DNA from: Anaerolineae bacterium
GTDB taxonomy: Bacteria; Chloroflexota; Anaerolineae; B4-G1; SLSP01
Length of the DNA: 64,000 nucleotides
Direction of reading: 5' to 3'
NCBI GenBank assembly: GCA_034432595.1
Contig: DAOUBT010000033.1
Coordinates: 2,353-66,352 of the forward strand
Shown here: positions 1 to 10,982 of the stretch, piece after piece
How positions within the stretch are numbered: the stretch's first letter is position 1
Layout: each line of letters opens with the position of its first letter
The notes under the pieces: generated by a model
What the model was told of the DNA's origin: nothing
What the model saw: the letters and a program-made list of their open reading frames with translations, nothing else
The model's database searches: none
Position numbers and translations under genes: made by a program

Positions 1-74
1 AAACCCGCACCAAAGTTGTGGAGCACTGCCTCCTCATGACCACCGACCCCGGCGACCTGGTGTTCGACCCGACG

Positions 75-1178
75 TGTGTCCGCAAAGGGACGCGGGTATG
101 GCGGATGGATGAGCCGGATAGCAGCACCTCTGCCGTCCCCCCGCGGGGAGAATACCCCCCTGTCGTTCCCCCGCTTGCGGGGGGACACAACCCTCCCTCC
201 CCGCGCGCGGGGATGGCCGGGGAGGGGACTGCCCCCTCTCAAAAGGCGGTGAGGGCCGGGGAAGGGACTGCCCCCTCTCAAAAGGCGGGGAGGGCCGGGG
301 AGGGGACTGCCTCCTCTCAAAAGGCGGGGAGGGCCGGGGAGAGGACTACTCCCTCTCAACAAGCGGGGAGGGCCGGGGAGGGGACTACACCCTCCCAGCA
401 AGCGGGGAGGGCCGGGGAGGGGCTTACGCCCGTCCCCATCGAAACCCTCCAGCCCGGGACCTGCGTGCTTGGTCACGACGGTCTGCCTCACCGTGTTCTG
501 CGTGTCATTCGACGAACCTATAACGGAACGATGGTTGGCATTCGCCATACCCTGTGTGACCAAACGTTGTGGCTCACAGCCGATCACAAGGTATTGGCCC
601 ACAAGCGGCCGCACAACCTGGGAGGCCATGCCGACTGGTCGGGCATTCCGCCGTTCCTGCGAGGGCGCAGTCGCGAACTACGCAAGAACATGACACCTCC
701 GGAGCGAAAATTGTGGGCCGTCCTGCGCCGCGACAGCACAGGTTTCACCTTCAGACGCCAACACCCCATCGGTCGGTACATCGCCGATTTCTACTGCCGT
801 GAAGCAGCCCTGGTGGTGGAAGTGGACGGCGCTATGGCCCATAGCCATCCCGCCGCCATCGAACACGACCGAGTCCGCGACGAATTCCTGCGCTCCCTGA
901 ACCTGAGGACGCTGCGTTTTCCCGCCGTAGAGGTGGAGCGCAATCTTGAAGGGGTTTTCACGGCTATTCAGGAAGCCTGCCGGGAGCAGTTTTCACCCGA
1001 ACATGCCCAATGGATCGAGGCGGAACAGCTAGAAAAGGGGGACATCGTGTTTTACGGCCCCCATCGTTCACCGGTGCGCGTCGAAGAAGTTGTGAGAATC
1101 CCTTCTGAAGAAGAAGTCTACGACCTGGAAGTCGAAGGAGTGCACTCGTTCATCACCGAAGTCTGCGCCGTGCACAAC
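75..1178 (+). mobile_element. Intein (368 aa) with an internal DUF559/Vsr-like endonuclease domain
   Basis: Starts with Cys (CVRKGTRVW), has block B LTADH and block F VYDLEVEGVHSFIT, and ends VHN followed by Cys+1. The central RKNMTPPERKLW..FRRQHPIGRYIADFYC..VVEVDG..H..RD segment is DUF559-like. Removing it restores DPT-CGS. Confidence 0.92.
137..423. repeat. GC-rich palindromes followed by ~5.3 tandem 39-bp repeats (13-aa RAGEGTAPSQKAG) inside the intein
   Basis: Unit GGGCCGGGGAGGGGACTGCCCCCTCTCAAAAGGCGGGGA repeats from ~214 to 423. Upstream palindromes include CCCCCGCTTGCGGGGG. Confidence 0.9.
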
Positions 1179-1605
1179 TGCGGCTCCGACACCACCGCCT
1201 ACGTGGCCGAGCAGTGGGGCCGGCGCTGGATCACCTGCGATACCTCGCGTGTCGCTTTAGCCATCGCTCGTCAGCGGCTGATGACCGCCGTCTTCGATTA
1301 CTACGAACTGGCGCATTCCGAAGAGGGCGTCGGCTCCAGCTTCAAGTCCAAGACCGTGCCGCACGTGACGCTCAAGTCCATCGCCAACAATCAGGAGATT
1401 GACTGCATTTACGCCCGCTGGCAGACCAAACTTGAACCGCTTCGGGAGGAGAGGAAGTCAAACGCCTGCTCACGGAGTTGGCGGTTGCGCCGCAAGCGTC
1501 AGGAGGAGATAAACGCCGCCATCGCCCGCCTCTGCGCAGCCCGCCGCTGAGCCTGACCGTCAGGCAAGTTTAATACAAAAAGAAGCCCCCTTGCAAAAGG
1601 CGAAA

Positions 1606-1640: not shown

Positions 1641-2531
1641 ATGAGCGTCAAGAAAACGATCACAGGTTTCATCATCCTGTTCCTGCTCCTGACGGGCTGT
1701 GCGGCGCCTGTTCAGGGCACAACGCCTACCCCCGAAGCCGTCATCACCCTGCAGAACAAAGGCTCGGATACGATGGTCAACCTGGCCTTAGCCTGGGCCG
1801 AGCGCTATCAGGAAATCAATCCGCAGGTGCGTTTAGCCGTCACCGGCGGCGGATCGGGGACGGGCATTGCCGCCCTGCTTAACGGCACGGTGGACATCGC
1901 CAACGCCTCGCGTGCCATCAAGCCGGAAGAAATCGCCGAAGCTGAAAAGCAGGGCATCACGCCGGTGGAATTCGTCGTCGCTCGCGATGCTATCGCCGTC
2001 ATCGTGCACCCCGACAACCCGGTGGATCACCTCACCCTGCAGCAAATTTCAGATATCTATCAGGGCAAAATCACCAACTGGCGTGAAGTCGGTGGAGAAG
2101 ACCGCCCCATCGTGCTGCTCTCCCGCGAGACCAACTCCGGCACCCACGTCTACTTCCTGGAAGAAGTGGTGCGCCTGGGCAACGCAAAAGCCACCGACAT
2201 CCTTTTCTCACCGGAGACCCTGCTCATGCCCTCGTCCGAAGGCATCACGGCGGAAGTGCGGCAAAACCCCAATGCTATCGGCTATGATGGTTTGGGCTAT
2301 GTCACGCCTGATGTTAAGACCGTCGCCGTTGGCCTCGATCCCGCCGGTCCGTTCTACCCACCCTCGGTGGAAACCGTGAACAGCGGCCAATACCCTATCG
2401 CCCGCGACCTGTACATGTACACGGCGGGAGAGCCGACCGGAGCGCTGCAAGCTTACCTGGAGTGGATTTTGAGTCCCGAAGCGCAAGGGATTGTCAAAGA
2501 CTTGGGATTCGTTCCCATCATCAGCAAGTAA
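1641..2531 (+). CDS. pstS: Phosphate ABC transporter substrate-binding lipoprotein
   Basis: Lipobox LLTGC, motifs KGSDTM and GGGSGTGI, and position upstream of pstCAB. Confidence 0.93.
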   Translation: MSVKKTITGFIILFLLLTGCAAPVQGTTPTPEAVITLQNKGSDTMVNLALAWAERYQEINPQVRLAVTGGGSGTGIAALLNGTVDIANASRAIKPEEIAEAEKQGITPVEFVVARDAIAVIVHPDNPVDHLTLQQISDIYQGKITNWREVGGEDRPIVLLSRETNSGTHVYFLEEVVRLGNAKATDILFSPETLLMPSSEGITAEVRQNPNAIGYDGLGYVTPDVKTVAVGLDPAGPFYPPSVETVNSGQYPIARDLYMYTAGEPTGALQAYLEWILSPEAQGIVKDLGFVPIISK

Positions 2532-2540
2532 CGAGGGGCC

Positions 2541-3434
2541 ATGCAACGTAAGCGAGCTTTTGAATTCATCATCGAGCGCGGCATTCAGGCTTCCGGCATT
2601 TCCGCCATCGTCCTGGTCGCGCTCATTTTTATGTTCCTCATCCGGGAAGGCGCACCTGCGTTCTTCGAAGTACCGATCGCCAAACTCTTCTCCACGCGCT
2701 GGTATCCTATCGAAAGCCATTTCGGCCTTTTGCCGCTCATTTTGGGGTCGTTGATGGTGACCCTCGGTGCAGCGCTGGTCGCCCTTCCCACCGGGCTACT
2801 GACCGCCATCTTCATCGCCGAAATCGCCCCCGAATGGGCACGCGACCTGCTCAAACCCATGGTGGAAGTCCTGGCGGGCATTCCTTCCGTCGTCCTGGGC
2901 TTTTTCGGCATGGTCGCCATCGCGCCCTTAGTGCGGGAAACCCTGAACATCCCTACCGGCCTGACCGCTTTCACCGGCGCTTTGCTCCTGGCCTGGATGG
3001 CGCTGCCTACCATCGTCAGCGTAGCCGAGGACGCCATTGATGCTGTTCCCAACACCTACCGCGACGCGGGCCTGGCCTTAGGCCTCACCCACTGGCAAAC
3101 CATCTGGCGTATCGTCATCCCTGCGGCGCGCTCTGGCATTCTTACTGCGATGATGCTCGGCATCGGGCGCGCCATCGGCGAGACCATGACCGTGATGATG
3201 GTAACGGGCAACGCGGCGCGTATGCCGCTCACGGCGGATAGCTTCTTCCGTCCGGTGCGCACCATGACCGCCACCATCGCCGCCGAAATGGGCGAGGTCG
3301 CCAGCGGAAGCACCCATTACCATGTGCTCTTTGCCGTTGGCCTGGCCCTGTTCGTCATCACCTTTATCATCAACATGCTCGCAGCGGCGTTCGTCTTCCG
3401 GCAAGTGCGCCGTTCAGAACGCATCATGTCCTGA
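2541..3434 (+). CDS. pstC: Phosphate ABC transporter permease
   Basis: Hydrophobic; motifs LAGIPSVVLG and GIGRAIGETM. Confidence 0.93.
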   Translation: MQRKRAFEFIIERGIQASGISAIVLVALIFMFLIREGAPAFFEVPIAKLFSTRWYPIESHFGLLPLILGSLMVTLGAALVALPTGLLTAIFIAEIAPEWARDLLKPMVEVLAGIPSVVLGFFGMVAIAPLVRETLNIPTGLTAFTGALLLAWMALPTIVSVAEDAIDAVPNTYRDAGLALGLTHWQTIWRIVIPAARSGILTAMMLGIGRAIGETMTVMMVTGNAARMPLTADSFFRPVRTMTATIAAEMGEVASGSTHYHVLFAVGLALFVITFIINMLAAAFVFRQVRRSERIMS

Positions 3435-3443
3435 GGTGACGCC

Positions 3444-4289
3444 ATGAGCCGTCAAGTCCAACAACGCCTGGGTTTCTTCTTCGTCTCCCTTGTGGCCGTG
3501 CTGGTCATCGTGCCCATCTTCTTCATCGTCGGTTCAATCGCGTGGCAGGGCCTGCCCGCCATTTCCTGGTCCTTCCTCACTGACTACCCCTACCATGGGA
3601 TGAAGGAGGGGGGCATTTTGCCGGCGCTGGTCGGCACCTTCTGGCTGACGCTGGGCACGGCGATCGTCAGCGTGCCCATCGGCGTGGGGGCGGGCATCTA
3701 TCTTTCGGAATATGCCAAAGACACCCCGCTGACGCGCGCCATTCGCATCGCTATCATCAACCTGGCGGGCATCCCCTCCGTGGTGTACGGTCTGTTTGGC
3801 CTGGGCCTGTTCGTGCTGTTCCTGGGCTTTGGCACCTCGATTCTGGCCGGCTCGCTGACCCTGGGCATTATGACCCTGCCGGTCATCATCAGCACCACCG
3901 AGGAAGCGGTGCGCGCCGTACCGCAGGCCTTCCGCGCCATCAGCATCAGCTTAGGCGGCACGCGCTGGCAGACCATCTACCGCATCGTGCTACCGCAGGC
4001 CTTGCCGGGCATCATGACCGGCGTCATCCTGGGCCTGGAGCGCGCCGCGGGCGAGACCGCGCCCATTCTGTTCACCGTAGCGGCGTTTTTCCTGCCACGC
4101 CTGCCTCACTCCATCTTTGATCAAACCATGGCGCTGCCCTACCACCTTTTCGTCATCAGCACGCAGGTGCCGGGCATGCCGGTTAAAATCCAATACGGGA
4201 CGGCGTTAGTCCTGCTGGTCTTCGTGCTCTCGATGAACTTCATCGCCACGATGATCCGCCGTCGTTACCGTCGCAATCGAGCGTGGTAA
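3444..4289 (+). CDS. pstA: Phosphate ABC transporter permease
   Basis: Motifs NLAGIPSVVYGLFG and ERAAGETAP. Confidence 0.93.
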   Translation: MSRQVQQRLGFFFVSLVAVLVIVPIFFIVGSIAWQGLPAISWSFLTDYPYHGMKEGGILPALVGTFWLTLGTAIVSVPIGVGAGIYLSEYAKDTPLTRAIRIAIINLAGIPSVVYGLFGLGLFVLFLGFGTSILAGSLTLGIMTLPVIISTTEEAVRAVPQAFRAISISLGGTRWQTIYRIVLPQALPGIMTGVILGLERAAGETAPILFTVAAFFLPRLPHSIFDQTMALPYHLFVISTQVPGMPVKIQYGTALVLLVFVLSMNFIATMIRRRYRRNRAW

Positions 4290-4291
4290 GC

Positions 4292-5056
4292 ATGGAACTC
4301 CAAATCAAAATCCAGATTGAGGATTTCTCCCTGCGTTATTCGGATGGCGTCGAAAGCCTGCGCCACATTACGCTTCCCATTTACAGCAATCAAATTAACG
4401 TCCTTTTTGGGCCGGCGGGCGGCGGCAAAAGCTCCCTCTTGCGTGCTATCAATCGCTTAAATGATCTGGTGGATGTGGCCGAGCGTAGCGGGCGCATCCT
4501 GCTCGATGGGGAAGATGTCTACGCCCCCGGTTATGATGTCATCGCCTTGCGCCGAAGGGTGGGGATTGTCTTTGCGCGTCCCGTCTCCCTGCCTTTGAGC
4601 GTGTATCGCAACATCACTTACGGCCTGGAGCTGGCCGGAGTGCGCGATAAAACCGTGCTCGATGAAGCCGTCGAACGCAGCCTGCGTCAGGCAGCCTTGT
4701 GGGATGAAATGAAAGACCGCCTGCACGATCCCGCCTATGCCCTTTCGGGCGGGCAGCAGCAGCGCCTGTCCCTGGCGCGGACGCTGGCCCTCCAACCGGA
4801 AGTCATCATGCTGGATGAACCCACATCGGCCTTAGATCCCATTTCTACGGCCAAAATCGAAGATACACTGCAAGAGCTCAAGCAGACCTACACCATCATT
4901 GTCGTGCCCCACAATGTGCAGCAGGCCGCGCGGTTAGCGGATTGGGCGAGCTTTTTCCTGCAGAGCGAACTCATCGAACACGGACCGGGACGCACCTTGT
5001 TCCTCACACCCCAGGACAAACGCACCGAGGACTACGTCGCAGGCCGTTTTGGGTAA
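4292..5056 (+). CDS. pstB: Phosphate ABC transporter ATPase
   Basis: Walker A GPAGGGKS, signature LSGGQQQRL, Walker B MLDEPTSALDP, and C-terminal RTEDYVAGRFG. Confidence 0.92.
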   Translation: MELQIKIQIEDFSLRYSDGVESLRHITLPIYSNQINVLFGPAGGGKSSLLRAINRLNDLVDVAERSGRILLDGEDVYAPGYDVIALRRRVGIVFARPVSLPLSVYRNITYGLELAGVRDKTVLDEAVERSLRQAALWDEMKDRLHDPAYALSGGQQQRLSLARTLALQPEVIMLDEPTSALDPISTAKIEDTLQELKQTYTIIVVPHNVQQAARLADWASFFLQSELIEHGPGRTLFLTPQDKRTEDYVAGRFG

Positions 5057-5131
5057 GATTGAGCAACTTCGCACAGCCCATGAGAAAACAAGCTCATGCA
5101 CCTGCCGGGCCATGGCAAACGGCTGGGAAGT

Positions 5132-5261
5132 GTAACGGCTTCCATCCCCTATCGGAGCCGTGTTGAACTTGCGCTGCTGTGTTTTCAGCCAGGTACCTGA
5201 GGAGCCAAAGTGGGGCAGGCTAAAGCCATGCCTCGCCTGCCCTGAGGAGGTAAGCCGTTAC
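5132..5261. mobile_element. MITE-like element with ~13-bp terminal inverted repeats and an internal palindrome
   Basis: Left end GTAACGGCTTCC, right end GGTAAGCCGTTAC, internal hairpin GGGCAGGC...GCCTGCCC (5213-5242). A further right end GAGCCGTTAC lies at 5367-5376. Confidence 0.6.
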
Positions 5262-5527
5262 GGGAAAGGTCTTTTTTTCAATAGCATGTTCAGCCACCCA
5301 GAACCCTGGGAAAGCGGCTTGTTTTCGCCGTTTTCCTGTGACAGATCACAACGGCCCTGCTCTCACGAGCCGTTACAGAAAAGCCGTTCAGCCCGGAAAA
5401 ACAGGCCCATGCCCAATTATAAAGAAAAAATTCGCTCTTTATTCTACGCACACCTGATGTATAATTGGGCCGGTCAAGTAAGGCTTTGCGCTTATGATCC
5501 AAGCTTATTTTCAACAAGGAGGCACAC

Positions 5528-9088
<3,561 letters not shown>

Positions 9089-9231: not shown

Positions 9232-10002
9232 CTACGCCTCCAGGACCACCACGTGACGGTCGTCCACCTCGATGACCGTGATGGGTACCCCATAGGTCGC
9301 CGTGAGCCGTTCCGCCGTCAGGGCCGTGCCGTTCTCTCCCGCGGCCAACACCTGTCCATCGCGCATCAGCACCACGTAGTCGGCCACCAGCGCTGCCGCG
9401 CTAGGGTCGTGCGTGGTAAAGATCACCGTTGTCCCCTGCGCCGCCAGGGTCCGCATGAGCTGCAAAACGCGCTTTTGATTGCCCAGGTCCAGGTGCGAAG
9501 TCGGCTCATCCAGCAGCAGGATGCGGGGCTCTTGCGCCAGCGCGCGCGCTACGGTGACCAGTTGCCGCTCTCCGCCGCTGAGGGTGGTGACGGGGCGCGC
9601 GCGCAAATGGACAGCCCCCACCGTCTCCAAAGCCCGGCACGCGACCTGACGGTCAGCTTCGCGCGGCGTCTCCAGCAATTCCAGATAGGGCGCTCGCCCC
9701 AACAACACGTACTCCAGCACGGTAAAATCGAAGGGGATGTACTCATCCTGCGGCACCAGGCCCACCAGACGCCCCATCTCACGCCGTCCATAGGCCTGAC
9801 GAGGCCGACCGTCCAGCCAAATCTGCCCGCTGCGCGGCGTCAACAACCCAACCATCAGGTGCAGCAAGGTGCTCTTCCCTGCGCCATTCGGCCCCAGGAT
9901 GGCAGTCACCTTTCCCGCGGGGAAATCCAACGTGAACCCCTCCAGCACAGGCCGGGCATCATAACCAAAACATAACGCCTCTAACGTGATGATGGGTTTC
10001 AT
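9232..10002 (-). CDS. Iron-siderophore/cobalamin-class ABC transporter ATPase
   Basis: Motifs GPNGAGKST, LSGGERQ and LLDEPTSHLD. Confidence 0.9.
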   Translation of the reverse strand: MKPIITLEALCFGYDARPVLEGFTLDFPAGKVTAILGPNGAGKSTLLHLMVGLLTPRSGQIWLDGRPRQAYGRREMGRLVGLVPQDEYIPFDFTVLEYVLLGRAPYLELLETPREADRQVACRALETVGAVHLRARPVTTLSGGERQLVTVARALAQEPRILLLDEPTSHLDLGNQKRVLQLMRTLAAQGTTVIFTTHDPSAAALVADYVVLMRDGQVLAAGENGTALTAERLTATYGVPITVIEVDDRHVVVLEA

Positions 10003-10982
10003 CGCAACCGCTCCGGAGCTTTGTGCACCATCAGGCCGATAAACACCAGCGCGCCCACCAGGGAGGTGAGAATGCCCAGTGGAATCTCACCGGGAAGGAG
10101 GGTGCGGGCCAGGTCGTCGCAAATCACCACGAAAATCGCGCCCATCAACAGGGAGGCGGGGAGCGCGCGCTGCGCGTCCGCACCGAGCAACCGCCGCGCC
10201 AGATGGGGCACAATCAACCCAACCCAACCGACAATGCCCGACACCGAGACCACGGCCGCCGTAGCCGCCACCGCTGCGACCAATAAGACCGTCCGCTCGC
10301 GCGCCGGTTGCGTGCCCAGAGAGAAAACCGTCTCATCCTGCAACGCCAGGAGATTGAGCCGCCAGCGCATCAACACCAGCAGCACCAGCGCCGGCAAAGC
10401 CATGGGCACCACCATCCCCAGTTTCGTCCAGGTGATGCCGGATAGCCCGCCCAACGTCCAGAAAACGATATCCTGAAGCTGCGTCAGCGGATCGGCCATG
10501 TATTTGAGGATGCCCACCCCGGACGAGAATAACGCCGAAACAGCAATGCCGGCCAACACCAGCCGCAACACCCACCCGCCATAACGAATGCGCCGCGCCA
10601 GAAAATACGAAAGAGCCAGGCCCAGGCAGGCAAACAGCGCCGCGCTGACCTGCAACGTTCCGGCCTGCGGACCGATGACGATGATGCTGAAAGCCGCGCC
10701 AAAAGCCGCTCCCTGAGAGATGCCCAGGAAGCCCGGTTCCACCAGCGGGTTGCGGAAAATCATCTGTAACACGGTGCCGGAAGCTGCCAGCGCCATCCCC
10801 AGAAGACAGGCCGTCAGGATACGCGGCAAACGCAGCATGAGCACCAGCCGCTGCGCCGTGGCATCGTGGAACAAACGGAAGGGAGACATGCCGTAAGGCG
10901 CGGGGTACCTTCCTACCAGCAAGGAAAGCCCCAACACCACCAGCAAAACCAGCGTAAGCCCCCAGACAATGCGTCGTTTCAT
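9999..10982 (-). CDS. FecCD/BtuC-family ABC permease
   Basis: Motifs LRLPRI, IFRNPLVEP and GIVGWVGLIVPH. Confidence 0.92.
   Translation of the reverse strand: MKRRIVWGLTLVLLVVLGLSLLVGRYPAPYGMSPFRLFHDATAQRLVLMLRLPRILTACLLGMALAASGTVLQMIFRNPLVEPGFLGISQGAAFGAAFSIIVIGPQAGTLQVSAALFACLGLALSYFLARRIRYGGWVLRLVLAGIAVSALFSSGVGILKYMADPLTQLQDIVFWTLGGLSGITWTKLGMVVPMALPALVLLVLMRWRLNLLALQDETVFSLGTQPARERTVLLVAAVAATAAVVSVSGIVGWVGLIVPHLARRLLGADAQRALPASLLMGAIFVVICDDLARTLLPGEIPLGILTSLVGALVFIGLMVHKAPERLR

What the first reader, a model, noticed from the sequence alone, without database searches (positions are those of the whole stretch)
75..1178. Intein carrying a DUF559/Vsr-like nuclease inserted in the SAM-binding motif of a DNA methyltransferase
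Seen: intact splice motifs (Cys1, TADH, HN/C+1) split motif I as DPT|CGS. The homing-endonuclease slot between blocks B and F holds a DUF559-like domain (ADFYC, EVDG..H, RD) instead of LAGLIDADG or HNH. Known: inteins favour conserved motifs, and Vsr-like folds occur in EDxHD homing endonucleases. Inference: this is an unusual intein-nuclease pairing that may home into empty mod alleles and may link methylation to splicing.
Basis: partly seen in the sequence, partly recalled or inferred. Interest (0 to 1): 0.7.

Follow-up and report, generated by a model that had tools for sequence, protein, structure and literature searches.

The report
Intein with DUF559 nuclease in methylase
A self-splicing protein insert (intein) carrying a Vsr-like DUF559 nuclease instead of the usual homing endonuclease sits in the cofactor-binding motif of a decaying type III DNA methylase gene; it belongs to a widespread, essentially undescribed intein family, which suggests that DUF559 domains act as homing nucleases.

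Summary
Window 75..1178 (+) encodes a 368-aa class-1 intein (Cys1, TADH, HN, +1 Cys). It splits motif I (DPT|CGS) of a PF01555 type III Mod methyltransferase, and an in-frame DUF559 domain (Pfam E=2.6e-27) fills the endonuclease slot. An AlphaFold model shows a Hint fold plus a Vsr/I-Bth0305I-like nuclease.

It is not a one-off. Relatives occur in 169 species-level genomes across many phyla, always at the same site. At least 25 of 80 loci examined hold intact full-length precursors, and uninterrupted "empty" alleles with a strictly conserved target are abundant.

The papers I could search describe Vsr-like nucleases only for split inteins or antisense ORFs. I therefore rate this a new variant of a known kind.

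The window's own copy sits in a degenerate host gene: motif I reads GSD instead of GSG, about 300 aa of the C-terminus are deleted, and no Res gene follows. The intein core is nevertheless under purifying selection (dN/dS 0.13 against its closest relative). A 39-bp x5.5 in-frame tandem array of GC-rich hairpins expands its first loop.

Nothing supports a link between methylation and splicing.

Seen in passing: orphan Hint-DUF559 ORFs without a host gene, and Hint-less DUF559 cassettes inserted in frame into methylases between palindromic repeats.

The parts
3..74 (+). Last 24 codons of the Mod N-extein ([24 protein letters not shown]). The gene runs off the window's 5' end.
   Evidence: It matches the conserved [17 protein letters not shown] of homologues.
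75..1178 (+). Whole intein, 368 aa, class 1.
75..101 (+). Intein block A / first beta-strand (CVRKGTRVW), with Cys1 at 75-77.
   Evidence: Alignment with 30 homologous inteins. pLDDT is 97 for residues 1-10.
102..431 (+). Low-complexity, GC-rich (73% G+C) loop inserted in the first hairpin of the Hint fold. It is predicted to be disordered and is built of short palindromes.
   Evidence: pLDDT is below 50 for residues 25-29 and 31-112. Hairpins were found and the G+C value. Homologues have a variable stretch at the same place.
207..422 (+). In-frame tandem array, 39 bp x 5.5 copies (13-aa unit AGRAGEGTAPSQK).
   Evidence: TRF score 327, 90% matches. It is the strongest tandem repeat in the window and occurs nowhere else in it. 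It has three more units than in L003/L001.
432..602 (+). N-terminal Hint lobe, including block B TADH (576-587).
   Evidence: W166 and H171 invariant; strands predicted.
663..980 (+). DUF559 (Vsr/EDxHD-like PD-(D/E)xK) nuclease domain. Candidate catalytic residues: D238 (786-788), E249 (819-821), D251 (825-827), H256 (840-842), D265 (867-869) and R268 (876-878).
   Evidence: Pfam. All six residues are invariant in 47 sequences. D238 and D265 align directly with D196 and D222 of I-Bth0305I, and H256 corresponds to H213 after a one-residue shift of the printed alignment.
981..1178 (+). C-terminal Hint lobe with blocks F/G (VYDLEVEGVHSFITEVCAVHN); His-Asn at 1173-1178.
   Evidence: TIGR01443; invariant D350, H357, H367 and N368.
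1179..1550 (+). Remnant of the Mod C-extein. The +1 Cys is at 1179-1181. Motif I reads CGSDTT, with a Gly-to-Asp codon (GAC) at 1188-1190. The tblastn match to the Mod C-extein ends at 1394, and by eye against homologues the similarity runs to about nt 1420, followed by a short patch (WRLRRKRQEEINAAIAR). The stop codon is at 1548-1550. About 300 aa of the normal C-terminal domain are missing.
   Evidence: C-extein match covers only 1-72 of 415; MTase_III model positions 495-615 of 983. pstS starts at 1641.

Best explanation
Window 75..1178 encodes a class-1 intein from a widespread family whose nested endonuclease is an in-frame DUF559 domain. [quoted passage not shown] The family always occupies one site, between Thr and Cys of motif I (DPT|CGSGTT) in beta-class type III Mod DNA methyltransferases.

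Inferred mechanism. After translation, the Hint domain excises itself and rejoins the two halves of motif I. The released, or precursor-embedded, Hint-DUF559 protein nicks or cuts the conserved motif-I coding DNA of intein-free mod alleles. Recombinational repair from an occupied allele then copies the intein in, which is homing.

What is shown: the anatomy, fold, site, family, existence of empty alleles and purifying selection. What is inferred: splicing and site-specific cleavage.

The copy in this window has all splice and nuclease residues intact and has evolved under purifying selection. Its host gene, however, is degenerate: GSG has become GSD in the SAM-binding motif, about 300 aa of the C-terminus are deleted, and there is no Res partner. 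It is therefore an intein outliving its host gene, and may be on the way to the host-less Hint-DUF559 ORFs seen in other genomes.
For: DUF559 is well above Pfam's threshold and the intein C-terminal model is above NCBIfam's threshold. The AF2 model has a Hint horseshoe plus an inserted nuclease, with matches to solved inteins, 3HRL and 3R3P. A DUF559 profile hits I-Bth0305I at E=1.3e-5, with counterparts of its D196, H213 and D222 invariant here. The same insertion site is found in every homologue. The host is type III Mod (MTase_III E=3e-162), with ResIII/REase_III downstream in intact loci. Relatives occur in 169 species genomes from many phyla and in 84 clusters at E<=1e-30. At least 25 of 80 loci have a single ORF spanning N-extein, intein and C-extein. 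Of the top 120 extein hits, 112 are uninterrupted at DPTCGSGTT. The reconstructed target DNA is conserved at codon positions 1-2 over 60 bp. Pairwise intein identity is only weakly coupled to extein identity (r=0.40, against 0.72 between the two exteins), and some pairs have more similar inteins than exteins. The window intein core against L003 gives dN/dS 0.13 at dS 0.20, in all three parts. Host decay is documented.
Against: No activity data exist for any member, whether for splicing or cleavage. A single Vsr-like domain is expected to nick unless it dimerises, and no separate DNA-binding module (NUMOD-like) is present. The 110-aa disordered loop in the first Hint hairpin could impair splicing. 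The host gene here is degenerate, so selection for splicing in this copy is hard to explain, and part of the low dN/dS may date from before the host decayed. No copy was found on phages, plasmids or viral contigs. No closely related empty allele of this lineage was found. The intein/extein decoupling is modest and could reflect rate variation.
Confidence: 0.72

Rival explanations
1. The DUF559 domain is not a homing nuclease. It is a host-beneficial or addiction-type nuclease functionally tied to DNA methyltransferases, for example a restriction- or repair-like activity released stoichiometrically with Mod, and the intein is only its delivery vehicle.
For: DUF559 domains are also inserted in frame, without any Hint domain, in other methyltransferases (P0181, P0209, P0219, P0240, the L004 C-extein, P0374). 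DUF559 stays under purifying selection (dN/dS 0.13) in host-less orphan ORFs. A DUF559 profile also matches the PvuRts1I restriction nuclease domain.
Against: The host is an N6-A/N4-C class enzyme, so a Vsr-type T:G repair role has no obvious substrate (my own knowledge of Vsr/Dcm). The insertion lies exactly in a conserved motif with precise empty alleles, and the taxonomic distribution is patchy across many phyla. Both are the signature of selfish homing elements. The window copy persists although its methylase is degenerate.
Confidence: 0.15
2. The window copy is a dead relic. Neither splicing nor nuclease activity remains, and the ORF is intact only because decay is recent.
For: The host gene is clearly degenerate (GSD, truncated, no Res). 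A 330-nt repeat-laden loop has expanded by three units relative to L003. GC3 of the intein core (0.67) is lower than in neighbouring genes (0.73-0.82).
Against: All 27 family-invariant residues are retained. There is no stop or frameshift in 368 codons. dN/dS is 0.13 overall against the closest relative and 0.09-0.24 in every subdomain. Array expansion is in frame and lies in a loop that varies in all members, including intact ones.
Confidence: 0.2
3. It is not a true intein but a bacterial intein-like (BIL) or other Hint-domain module that does not ligate its flanks.
For: The top Foldseek hits by E-value are BIL domains (6Y75, 2LWY). Pfam Hint/intein models score below their cut-offs.
Against: Cys1, block B TxxH, the terminal His-Asn and a +1 Cys are all present and invariant, and TIGR01443 scores above its cut-off. 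The element interrupts a catalytic motif that is contiguous in thousands of homologues, so the host would be dead without ligation. Yet at least 25 loci keep full-length ORFs. BILs typically lack the +1 nucleophile and sit in variable regions (my own knowledge).
Confidence: 0.03

Closest known systems
Canonical endonuclease-containing inteins (LAGLIDADG, e.g. PI-SceI and PI-MtuI; HNH inteins)
   Same: A class-1 Hint splicing domain with a nuclease nested in frame between blocks B and F. It is inserted in a highly conserved catalytic motif of a DNA-metabolism enzyme, and intein-free alleles exist.
   Different: The nested nuclease is a DUF559 / Vsr-like PD-(D/E)xK domain of about 105 aa, not LAGLIDADG or HNH. 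The host is a type III Mod methyltransferase. A hypervariable, repeat-built disordered loop sits in the first Hint hairpin.
EDxHD homing endonucleases (I-Bth0305I; Vsr-like ORFs of 'fractured genes' with split inteins, Dassa 2009 PMC2677866, Taylor 2011 PMC3239194; antisense VSR-like ORFs in actinophage inteins, bioRxiv 10.1101/2025.01.02.630785)
   Same: Homologous catalytic core (profile E=1.3e-5, TM 0.81) with counterparts of D196, H213 and D222 conserved. Associated with inteins.
   Different: Those nucleases are separate ORFs (free-standing, intron-encoded, between split-intein halves, or antisense) and carry N-terminal NUMOD DNA-binding modules. Here the domain is translated in frame as part of a contiguous intein, and no NUMOD-type family appears among the Pfam hits. 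By sequence it belongs to Pfam DUF559 (about 50% identical to free-standing DUF559 proteins) rather than to the phage EDxHD clade.
Free-standing DUF559 proteins (PF04480; structure 3HRL, NGO0050; E. coli YcjD-type PRK09767)
   Same: 35-52% identity, TM 0.90 to 3HRL, and the same invariant residues.
   Different: Those are ORFs of about 115-140 aa with unknown function. Here the domain is embedded in a Hint domain inside a gene.
HO endonuclease of yeast (an intein-derived, host-less nuclease; my own knowledge)
   Same: Several genomes carry ORFs of about 250-420 aa made of Hint-DUF559-Hint, with degenerate splice residues and no exteins (L022, L071, L073, L079/L082, P0142, P0166, P0211). The window copy, with its decaying host, looks like an intermediate.
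   Different: HO uses LAGLIDADG and has a known cellular role. The function of these orphans is unknown, and only the DUF559 part shows strong constraint.
Vsr very-short-patch repair endonuclease
   Same: Same fold class and the same type of metal-binding Asp and His residues. This rests on the paper's description of I-Bth0305I as Vsr-like and on my own knowledge; no Vsr entry is among the listed matches.
   Different: No zinc site or intercalating Trp residues were checked. Vsr partners with the C5-cytosine methylase Dcm and nicks T:G mismatches, and nothing suggests that activity here.

Membership tests
Intein (class 1) | N-terminal Cys/Ser nucleophile at position 1 | tested here: met
   Cys1 is TGT at 75-77 and is present in every homologue whose N-terminal junction could be located in the same ORF.
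Intein (class 1) | Block B TxxH | tested here: met
   TADH at nt 576-587. H171 is invariant and T168 is at least 90% conserved.
Intein (class 1) | C-terminal His-Asn followed by a Cys/Ser/Thr +1 extein residue | tested here: met
   VHN|C at 1170-1181. H367, N368 and C369 are invariant. TIGR01443 scores 27.9 bits against a cut-off of 15.6.
Intein (class 1) | Hint (horseshoe) fold | tested here: met
   The AF2 model has pLDDT of 90 or more for 234 residues. Foldseek matches gp41-1, MchDnaB-1, Msm DnaB and Mtu RecA inteins at TM(target) 0.69-0.74.
Intein (class 1) | In-frame insertion whose removal restores a contiguous conserved host sequence | tested here: met
   DPT|...|CGS compared with DPTCGSGTT in 112 of 120 intein-free homologues.
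Intein (class 1) | Protein splicing demonstrated | not testable with these tools
   Needs expression of a precursor and detection of ligated exteins.
Pfam DUF559 (PF04480) | Score above the family's gathering threshold | tested here: met
   95.3 bits against 20.6, covering 104 of 109 profile positions. NCBIfam PRK09767 reaches only 74 bits against a cut-off of 218, so it is not that equivalog.
EDxHD / Vsr-like homing endonucleases (I-Bth0305I type) | Vsr-like catalytic core with the metal-binding Asp, general-base His and second Asp | tested here: met
   D238 and D265 align directly with D196 and D222, and H256 corresponds to H213 after a one-residue shift of the printed alignment. All three are invariant. 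TM is 0.81-0.82 to 3R3P.
EDxHD / Vsr-like homing endonucleases (I-Bth0305I type) | N-terminal NUMOD-type DNA-binding modules; separate ORF (free-standing, intron-borne or between split-intein halves) | tested here: not met
   No NUMOD or other DNA-binding family appears in Pfam at E<=1. The domain is in frame inside a contiguous intein.
EDxHD / Vsr-like homing endonucleases (I-Bth0305I type) | Site-specific cleavage of the element-free allele | not testable with these tools
   Needs a cleavage assay on the reconstructed site (consensus).
Type III R-M Mod methyltransferase (host gene) | Homology to type III Mod / PF01555 beta-class methyltransferase | tested here: met
   The window fragment matches PADLOC MTase_III PDLC03632 at E=5.4e-35. 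The spliced homologue P0151 scores E=3e-162.
Type III R-M Mod methyltransferase (host gene) | Intact SAM-binding motif I (FxGxG-type, here CGSGTT) | tested here: not met
   The window has CGSDTT (GAC at 1188-1190). Nearly all homologues have CGSGTT.
Type III R-M Mod methyltransferase (host gene) | Full-length gene with an adjacent Res helicase-nuclease | tested here: not met
   The C-extein matches only residues 1-72 of 415, and pstS follows at 1641. Intact loci have ResIII downstream. The N-extein lies outside the window and could not be retrieved.

The most novel reading that the evidence does not exclude
DUF559, a very large family of unknown function (21,551 clusters at E<=1e-3), may be the nuclease of a class of selfish elements that spreads by in-frame insertion into genes, especially DNA methyltransferases, using two alternative ways of sparing the host protein. 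One is a Hint splicing domain, which gives the intein family found here. The other uses no splicing at all: the nuclease is bracketed by GC-rich palindromic units (CCCTCTCCC-nnn-GGGAGAGGG and relatives) that translate into flexible Pro/Ser/Gly/Glu linkers, so the insert survives as an extra domain in a surface loop. Under this reading the short palindromes that litter these genes, including the intein's own first loop and the window's 39-bp array, would be the non-autonomous relatives or targets of the same nuclease. The host-less Hint-DUF559 ORFs would be HO-like escaped derivatives.
Probability: 0.3. Interest if true: 0.85.

Novelty: new variant of a known kind. Interest (0 to 1): 0.6.

Why it matters
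Inteins are known with LAGLIDADG and HNH nucleases in frame. Vsr-like nucleases have been tied to inteins only as separate ORFs, either between split-intein halves or on the antisense strand. A contiguous intein family with an in-frame DUF559 nuclease adds a new nuclease type to the intein repertoire. This family is found in about 170 species across many phyla and is fixed on one site of type III Mod genes.

It also gives the first concrete functional hypothesis for DUF559, one of the large orphan families: a homing or nicking endonuclease with a defined, testable target of 40-60 bp.

The family offers compact thermophile- and cyanobacteria-derived inteins, plus a small site-specific nuclease scaffold. 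It also provides a natural series for studying what happens to an intein when its host gene dies: intact precursors, decaying hosts like this window, and host-less orphans.

The Hint-less in-frame DUF559 cassettes, if mobile, would be a previously unrecognised way for a selfish nuclease to invade coding sequence without splicing.

Tried and rejected
- **Source contig.** I tried to retrieve it to see the N-extein. P0001 is not on record, and neither is P0006 from Chthonomonas, so the 5' part of the host gene stays unknown.
- **Dispersed repeat.** I asked whether the 39-bp unit is dispersed. There is no other copy in the 64-kb window and no exact match in the metagenome collection.
- **Related empty allele.** An exact-pattern scan of metagenomes for an empty allele of this lineage found nothing. 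This allows no conclusion about recent gain or loss.
- **Inverted repeats.** I looked for terminal inverted repeats around the DUF559 segment of the window intein, as seen in L004, and found none.
- **RNA genes.** Rfam and tRNA scans of the window found nothing, so no RNA element explains the GC-rich hairpins.
- **Mobile carriers.** Phage, plasmid and IMG/VR searches for the whole intein found only free-standing DUF559 genes or nothing. I have no evidence that a known mobile replicon carries it.
- **Atypical split intein.** Many database ORFs start at the conserved Met inside the intein, which suggested a split arrangement. I rejected this as a general explanation because at least 25 genome loci have one continuous ORF, and the broken cases include IS insertions and large insertions (L002, L066).
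- **Methylation-splicing coupling.** I found nothing that bears on it.
Full report
**1. What is in the sequence**

Frame 3 of the + strand is open from the window's first bases to a stop at 1548-1550. It reads [24 protein letters not shown] | CVRKGTRVW ... TADH ... VYDLEVEGVHSFITEVCAVHN | [35 protein letters not shown]....

Cys1 is at 75-77, His-Asn at 1173-1178 and the +1 Cys at 1179-1181, giving a 368-aa insert.

- Pfam finds DUF559 at E=2.6e-27 (95 bits against a cut-off of 20.6) at nt 663-980. It also gives sub-threshold hits to Intein_splicing and to N6_N4_Mtase at the C-terminal junction.
- NCBIfam's intein C-terminal model scores above its cut-off.
- An AlphaFold2 model built on 47 aligned relatives has mean pLDDT 80, with 234 residues at 90 or above.
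- Foldseek matches the split beta-rich part of the model to solved inteins (gp41-1, MchDnaB-1, Msm DnaB, Mtu RecA; TM on target 0.69-0.74).

**2.

(a) A low-complexity stretch of about 110 aa lies between block A (CVRKGTRVW) and the next Hint strand (PVPIETLQPG), at nt about 102-431.
- It has 73% G+C and is predicted to be disordered.
- It is made of short GC-rich palindromes.
- It contains a 39-bp x5.5 in-frame tandem array at 207-422, the strongest tandem repeat in the window, which occurs nowhere else in it.
- The closest relatives (L003 and L001, intein core 94% identical) have three fewer units.

(b) Motif I of the host reads CGSDTT, whereas nearly all homologues have CGSGTT.

(c) The C-extein matches type III Mod only over its first 72 residues by tblastn (about 80 by eye) plus a short patch, and about 300 aa are missing. 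pstSCAB follows at 1641 with no Res gene.

The N-extein lies outside the window, and I could not retrieve the source contig.

**3. The family**

The intein is one of many.
- A protein search gave more than 100 clusters at 90% identity with the same architecture. They come from Planktothrix, Microcystis, Leptolyngbya, Synechococcus, Chthonomonas, Thermochromatium, Nitrospira and many Chloroflexota MAGs, and are annotated only as "DUF559 domain-containing protein" or "very-short-patch-repair endonuclease".
- An exhaustive HMMER search found 84 clusters at 50% identity with E<=1e-30. Below these come free-standing DUF559 proteins of about 120-140 aa that are about 50% identical to the intein's nuclease domain.
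- A scan of one genome per species found 169 genomes with a relative. These include Chloroflexota, Cyanobacteria, Armatimonadota, Planctomycetota, Bacteroidota, Deltaproteobacteria, Nitrospira, Poribacteria, Leptospiraceae, Hydrogenedentota, Latescibacterota, Calditrichota and others.
- The closest is an Anaerolineae MAG (L003), so the window probably comes from an Anaerolineae bacterium.

The junction is ...DP(T/I)T|C...HN|CGSGTT wherever both junctions could be read, and ...HN|CGSGTT wherever only the C-terminal one could.

The host is a type III Mod. Spliced P0151 matches PADLOC MTase_III at E=3e-162, and a ResIII/REase_III protein lies downstream in L075 and L002. A second, more divergent Mod subfamily carries the intein at the same motif (L028, L044, L046, L049, L051, L061, L062, L067).

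**4. Integrity and empty alleles**

- Of the 80 genome loci examined, 25 have a single ORF containing an N-extein of at least 340 aa, the intein and a C-extein of at least 390 aa. About six more are intact in the divergent subfamily.
- P0151 (1166 aa) is a complete precursor.
- The other loci are cut by contig ends, truncated after motif I, split by an IS (L002) or reduced to host-less ORFs.
- A search with a spliced extein segment found 7103 proteins at E<=1e-10. Of the best 120, 112 have the uninterrupted sequence [35 protein letters not shown].
- The DNA target reconstructed from 46 occupied loci is conserved at first and second codon positions over 60 bp.

A conserved empty site for a homing nuclease therefore exists in abundance.

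**5. Is the nuclease likely active, and is the element mobile?**

The 47-sequence alignment has 27 invariant columns, and the window retains all of them.
- Splice residues: H171, H367, N368 and C+1.
- DUF559 residues: D238, E249, D251, H256, D265 and R268.

A profile of the DUF559 segment hits I-Bth0305I at E=1.3e-5. The residues mutated to inactivate that enzyme (D196, H213, D222; PMC3239194) correspond to D238, H256 and D265; D196 and D222 align directly, and H213 after a one-residue shift of the printed alignment.

Against L003, the window's intein core has dN/dS 0.13 at dS 0.20:
- N-terminal Hint lobe: 0.24
- DUF559: 0.11
- C-terminal Hint lobe: 0.09

Across the 25 intact loci, intein identity correlates only weakly with extein identity (r=0.40 and 0.38). 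The two exteins correlate at 0.72, and some pairs have inteins more similar than their exteins. This fits horizontal movement of the intein among mod alleles but is not decisive.

No copy was found on phages, plasmids or viral contigs.

**6. Mechanism**

The best-supported reading is an ordinary homing-intein life cycle with an unusual nuclease. The Hint domain splices motif I back together. The DUF559 domain nicks or cuts the motif-I coding DNA of empty mod alleles, probably with the Hint domain helping DNA binding as in PI-SceI (my own knowledge). Repair then copies the element in.

- Shown: anatomy, fold, site, family, empty alleles and constraint.
- Inferred: splicing, cleavage and the target.

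In this window the host methylase is degenerate, so the copy cannot matter for methylation.

**7. Comparison with what is known**

A 2025 survey (bioRxiv 10.1101/2025.01.02.630785) lists the nucleases reported in inteins:
- LAGLIDADG and HNH in frame.
- Vsr-like nucleases only in split inteins (Dassa 2009), plus the survey's own antisense cases. [quoted passage not shown]

Taylor 2011 defines the EDxHD family on intron-borne and free-standing ORFs with NUMOD domains. The only mention of this architecture I found is one sentence on a "DUF559-containing gene" among the intein-containing genes of two Thermosynechococcus strains (PMC9403480). Twenty-five papers mention DUF559 at all, and none assigns it a function.

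The library lacks most subscription journals and InBase, so a prior listing cannot be excluded. I classify the element as a new variant of a known kind: a member of the intein class and of Pfam DUF559, working like an EDxHD homing endonuclease, but not a member of that family as defined (no NUMOD modules, not a separate ORF).

**8. Leads beyond the finding**

(a) Host-less ORFs of about 250-420 aa consist of Hint-DUF559-Hint with degenerate splice residues (L022, L071, L073, L076, L079, L081, L082; P0142, P0166, P0167, P0175, P0211). In the orphan pair L079/L082, DUF559 is still constrained (dN/dS 0.13), while the Hint parts are more relaxed (0.36-0.46). This resembles the intein-derived HO endonuclease.

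(b) A second intein subfamily at the same site (P0109, P0203, P0217) has a canonical short first hairpin. Its DUF559 is bracketed inside the endonuclease slot by PSPxxGEG-type low-complexity repeats.

(c) DUF559 domains with the same flanking repeats are inserted in frame, without any Hint domain, into other methyltransferases (P0181, P0209, P0219, P0240) and into the Mod C-extein of L004.
- Comparison with the 81%-identical P0003 shows L004 has a 183-aa in-frame insertion between VKSVEELL and ADASIARSGETL, plus three smaller palindrome-derived insertions.
- At the DNA level, the L004 cassette lies between inverted copies of a unit containing the 21-nt palindrome CCCTCTCCC-nnn-GGGAGAGGG.
- P0374 carries the same cassette at the same site in another Mod.
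- The peptide signature of these units is about 13 times more frequent in DUF559-bearing proteins than in empty Mod fragments. This is a crude count without taxonomic control.

These leads suggest, but do not prove, that DUF559 is a mobile nuclease that can ride either in an intein or between linker-encoding palindromes.

**9. Verdict**

The finding is real and correctly described. It is a representative of a widespread, essentially undescribed intein type, although this particular copy sits in a dying host gene. Interest is moderate to high for the intein and homing-endonuclease fields and for annotation of DUF559. The larger claim about in-frame cassettes needs a dedicated survey and biochemistry.

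Noticed in passing
window 207-422 (within 102-431): A 39-bp x5.5 in-frame tandem array of GC-rich hairpin units (13-aa unit AGRAGEGTAPSQK) lies inside the intein's first loop. It has three more units than the 94%-identical inteins of L003/L001, is unique in the window, and has no exact match in the metagenome collection.
   Followed up: yes
window 1188-1190 and 1394-1550: The host Mod gene is degenerate. Motif I has Gly changed to Asp (GAC), the C-extein loses similarity after about 72-80 aa, and the ORF ends at 1550. pstS starts at 1641 and there is no Res gene.
   Followed up: yes
L004 8970-11411 (DUF559 about 9999-10340; palindromes at 9432, 9554, 9960, 10348): A second, Hint-less DUF559 domain is inserted in frame in the Mod C-extein between inverted copies of a unit containing CCCTCTCCC-nnn-GGGAGAGGG. 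Three further palindrome-derived in-frame insertions are seen relative to the 81%-identical P0003. P0374 has the same cassette at the same site.
   Followed up: partly
P0181, P0209, P0219, P0240, P0233, P0237, P0382, P0387 (database proteins): DUF559 domains are inserted in frame in other large methyltransferases, or lie in small ORFs. On both sides they are flanked by repeated PSPxxGEG / LTPALSQRERE-type peptides, which are translations of GC-rich palindromes. Often the same unit of 35-50 aa appears on each side.
   Followed up: partly
L022 7656-8867, L071 7506-8759, L073 7926-8960, L076 7839-9068, L079 4970-5923, L081 1936-2982, L082 7758-8861: Host-less Hint-DUF559-Hint ORFs with degenerate splice residues and no methylase flanks. 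In the pair L079/L082, dN/dS is 0.13 for DUF559 and 0.36-0.46 for the Hint-derived parts.
   Followed up: partly
P0109, P0203, P0217 (database proteins): A second DUF559-intein subfamily at the same Mod site (CFRAGTRVKTESGW...), about 40% identical. It has a short canonical first hairpin, and low-complexity repeats flank the DUF559 inside the endonuclease slot.
   Followed up: no
L002 3925-9454; L066 5181-8744: Occupied mod genes disrupted by other elements. In L002 an IS (DDE_Tnp_1, 6002-6757) lies between the N-terminal Mod ORFs and the intein-bearing ORF. In L066 about 1.2 kb is inserted between the N-extein and the intein core.
   Followed up: no
L075 4323-6279 and 10736-14688: The intact intein-bearing type III R-M (Mod plus a 937-aa ResIII protein) sits in a defence island, next to a CBASS-like pair (DncV-like/SMODS plus patatin) and a DUF1016/SNase protein (PADLOC PDC-S02).
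   Followed up: no
window 432-1178 versus 1641-9088: GC3 of the intein core (0.67) is lower than that of the neighbouring pstS (0.73), pstC (0.76) and pyruvate:ferredoxin oxidoreductase (0.82) genes. This fits a foreign origin or relaxed codon selection.
   Followed up: no
window 1641-5056 and 5528-9088: Ordinary housekeeping context directly downstream: a pstS-pstC-pstA-pstB phosphate transporter operon and a 1186-aa pyruvate:ferredoxin oxidoreductase. No tRNA or Rfam hit was found anywhere in the 64 kb.
   Followed up: no
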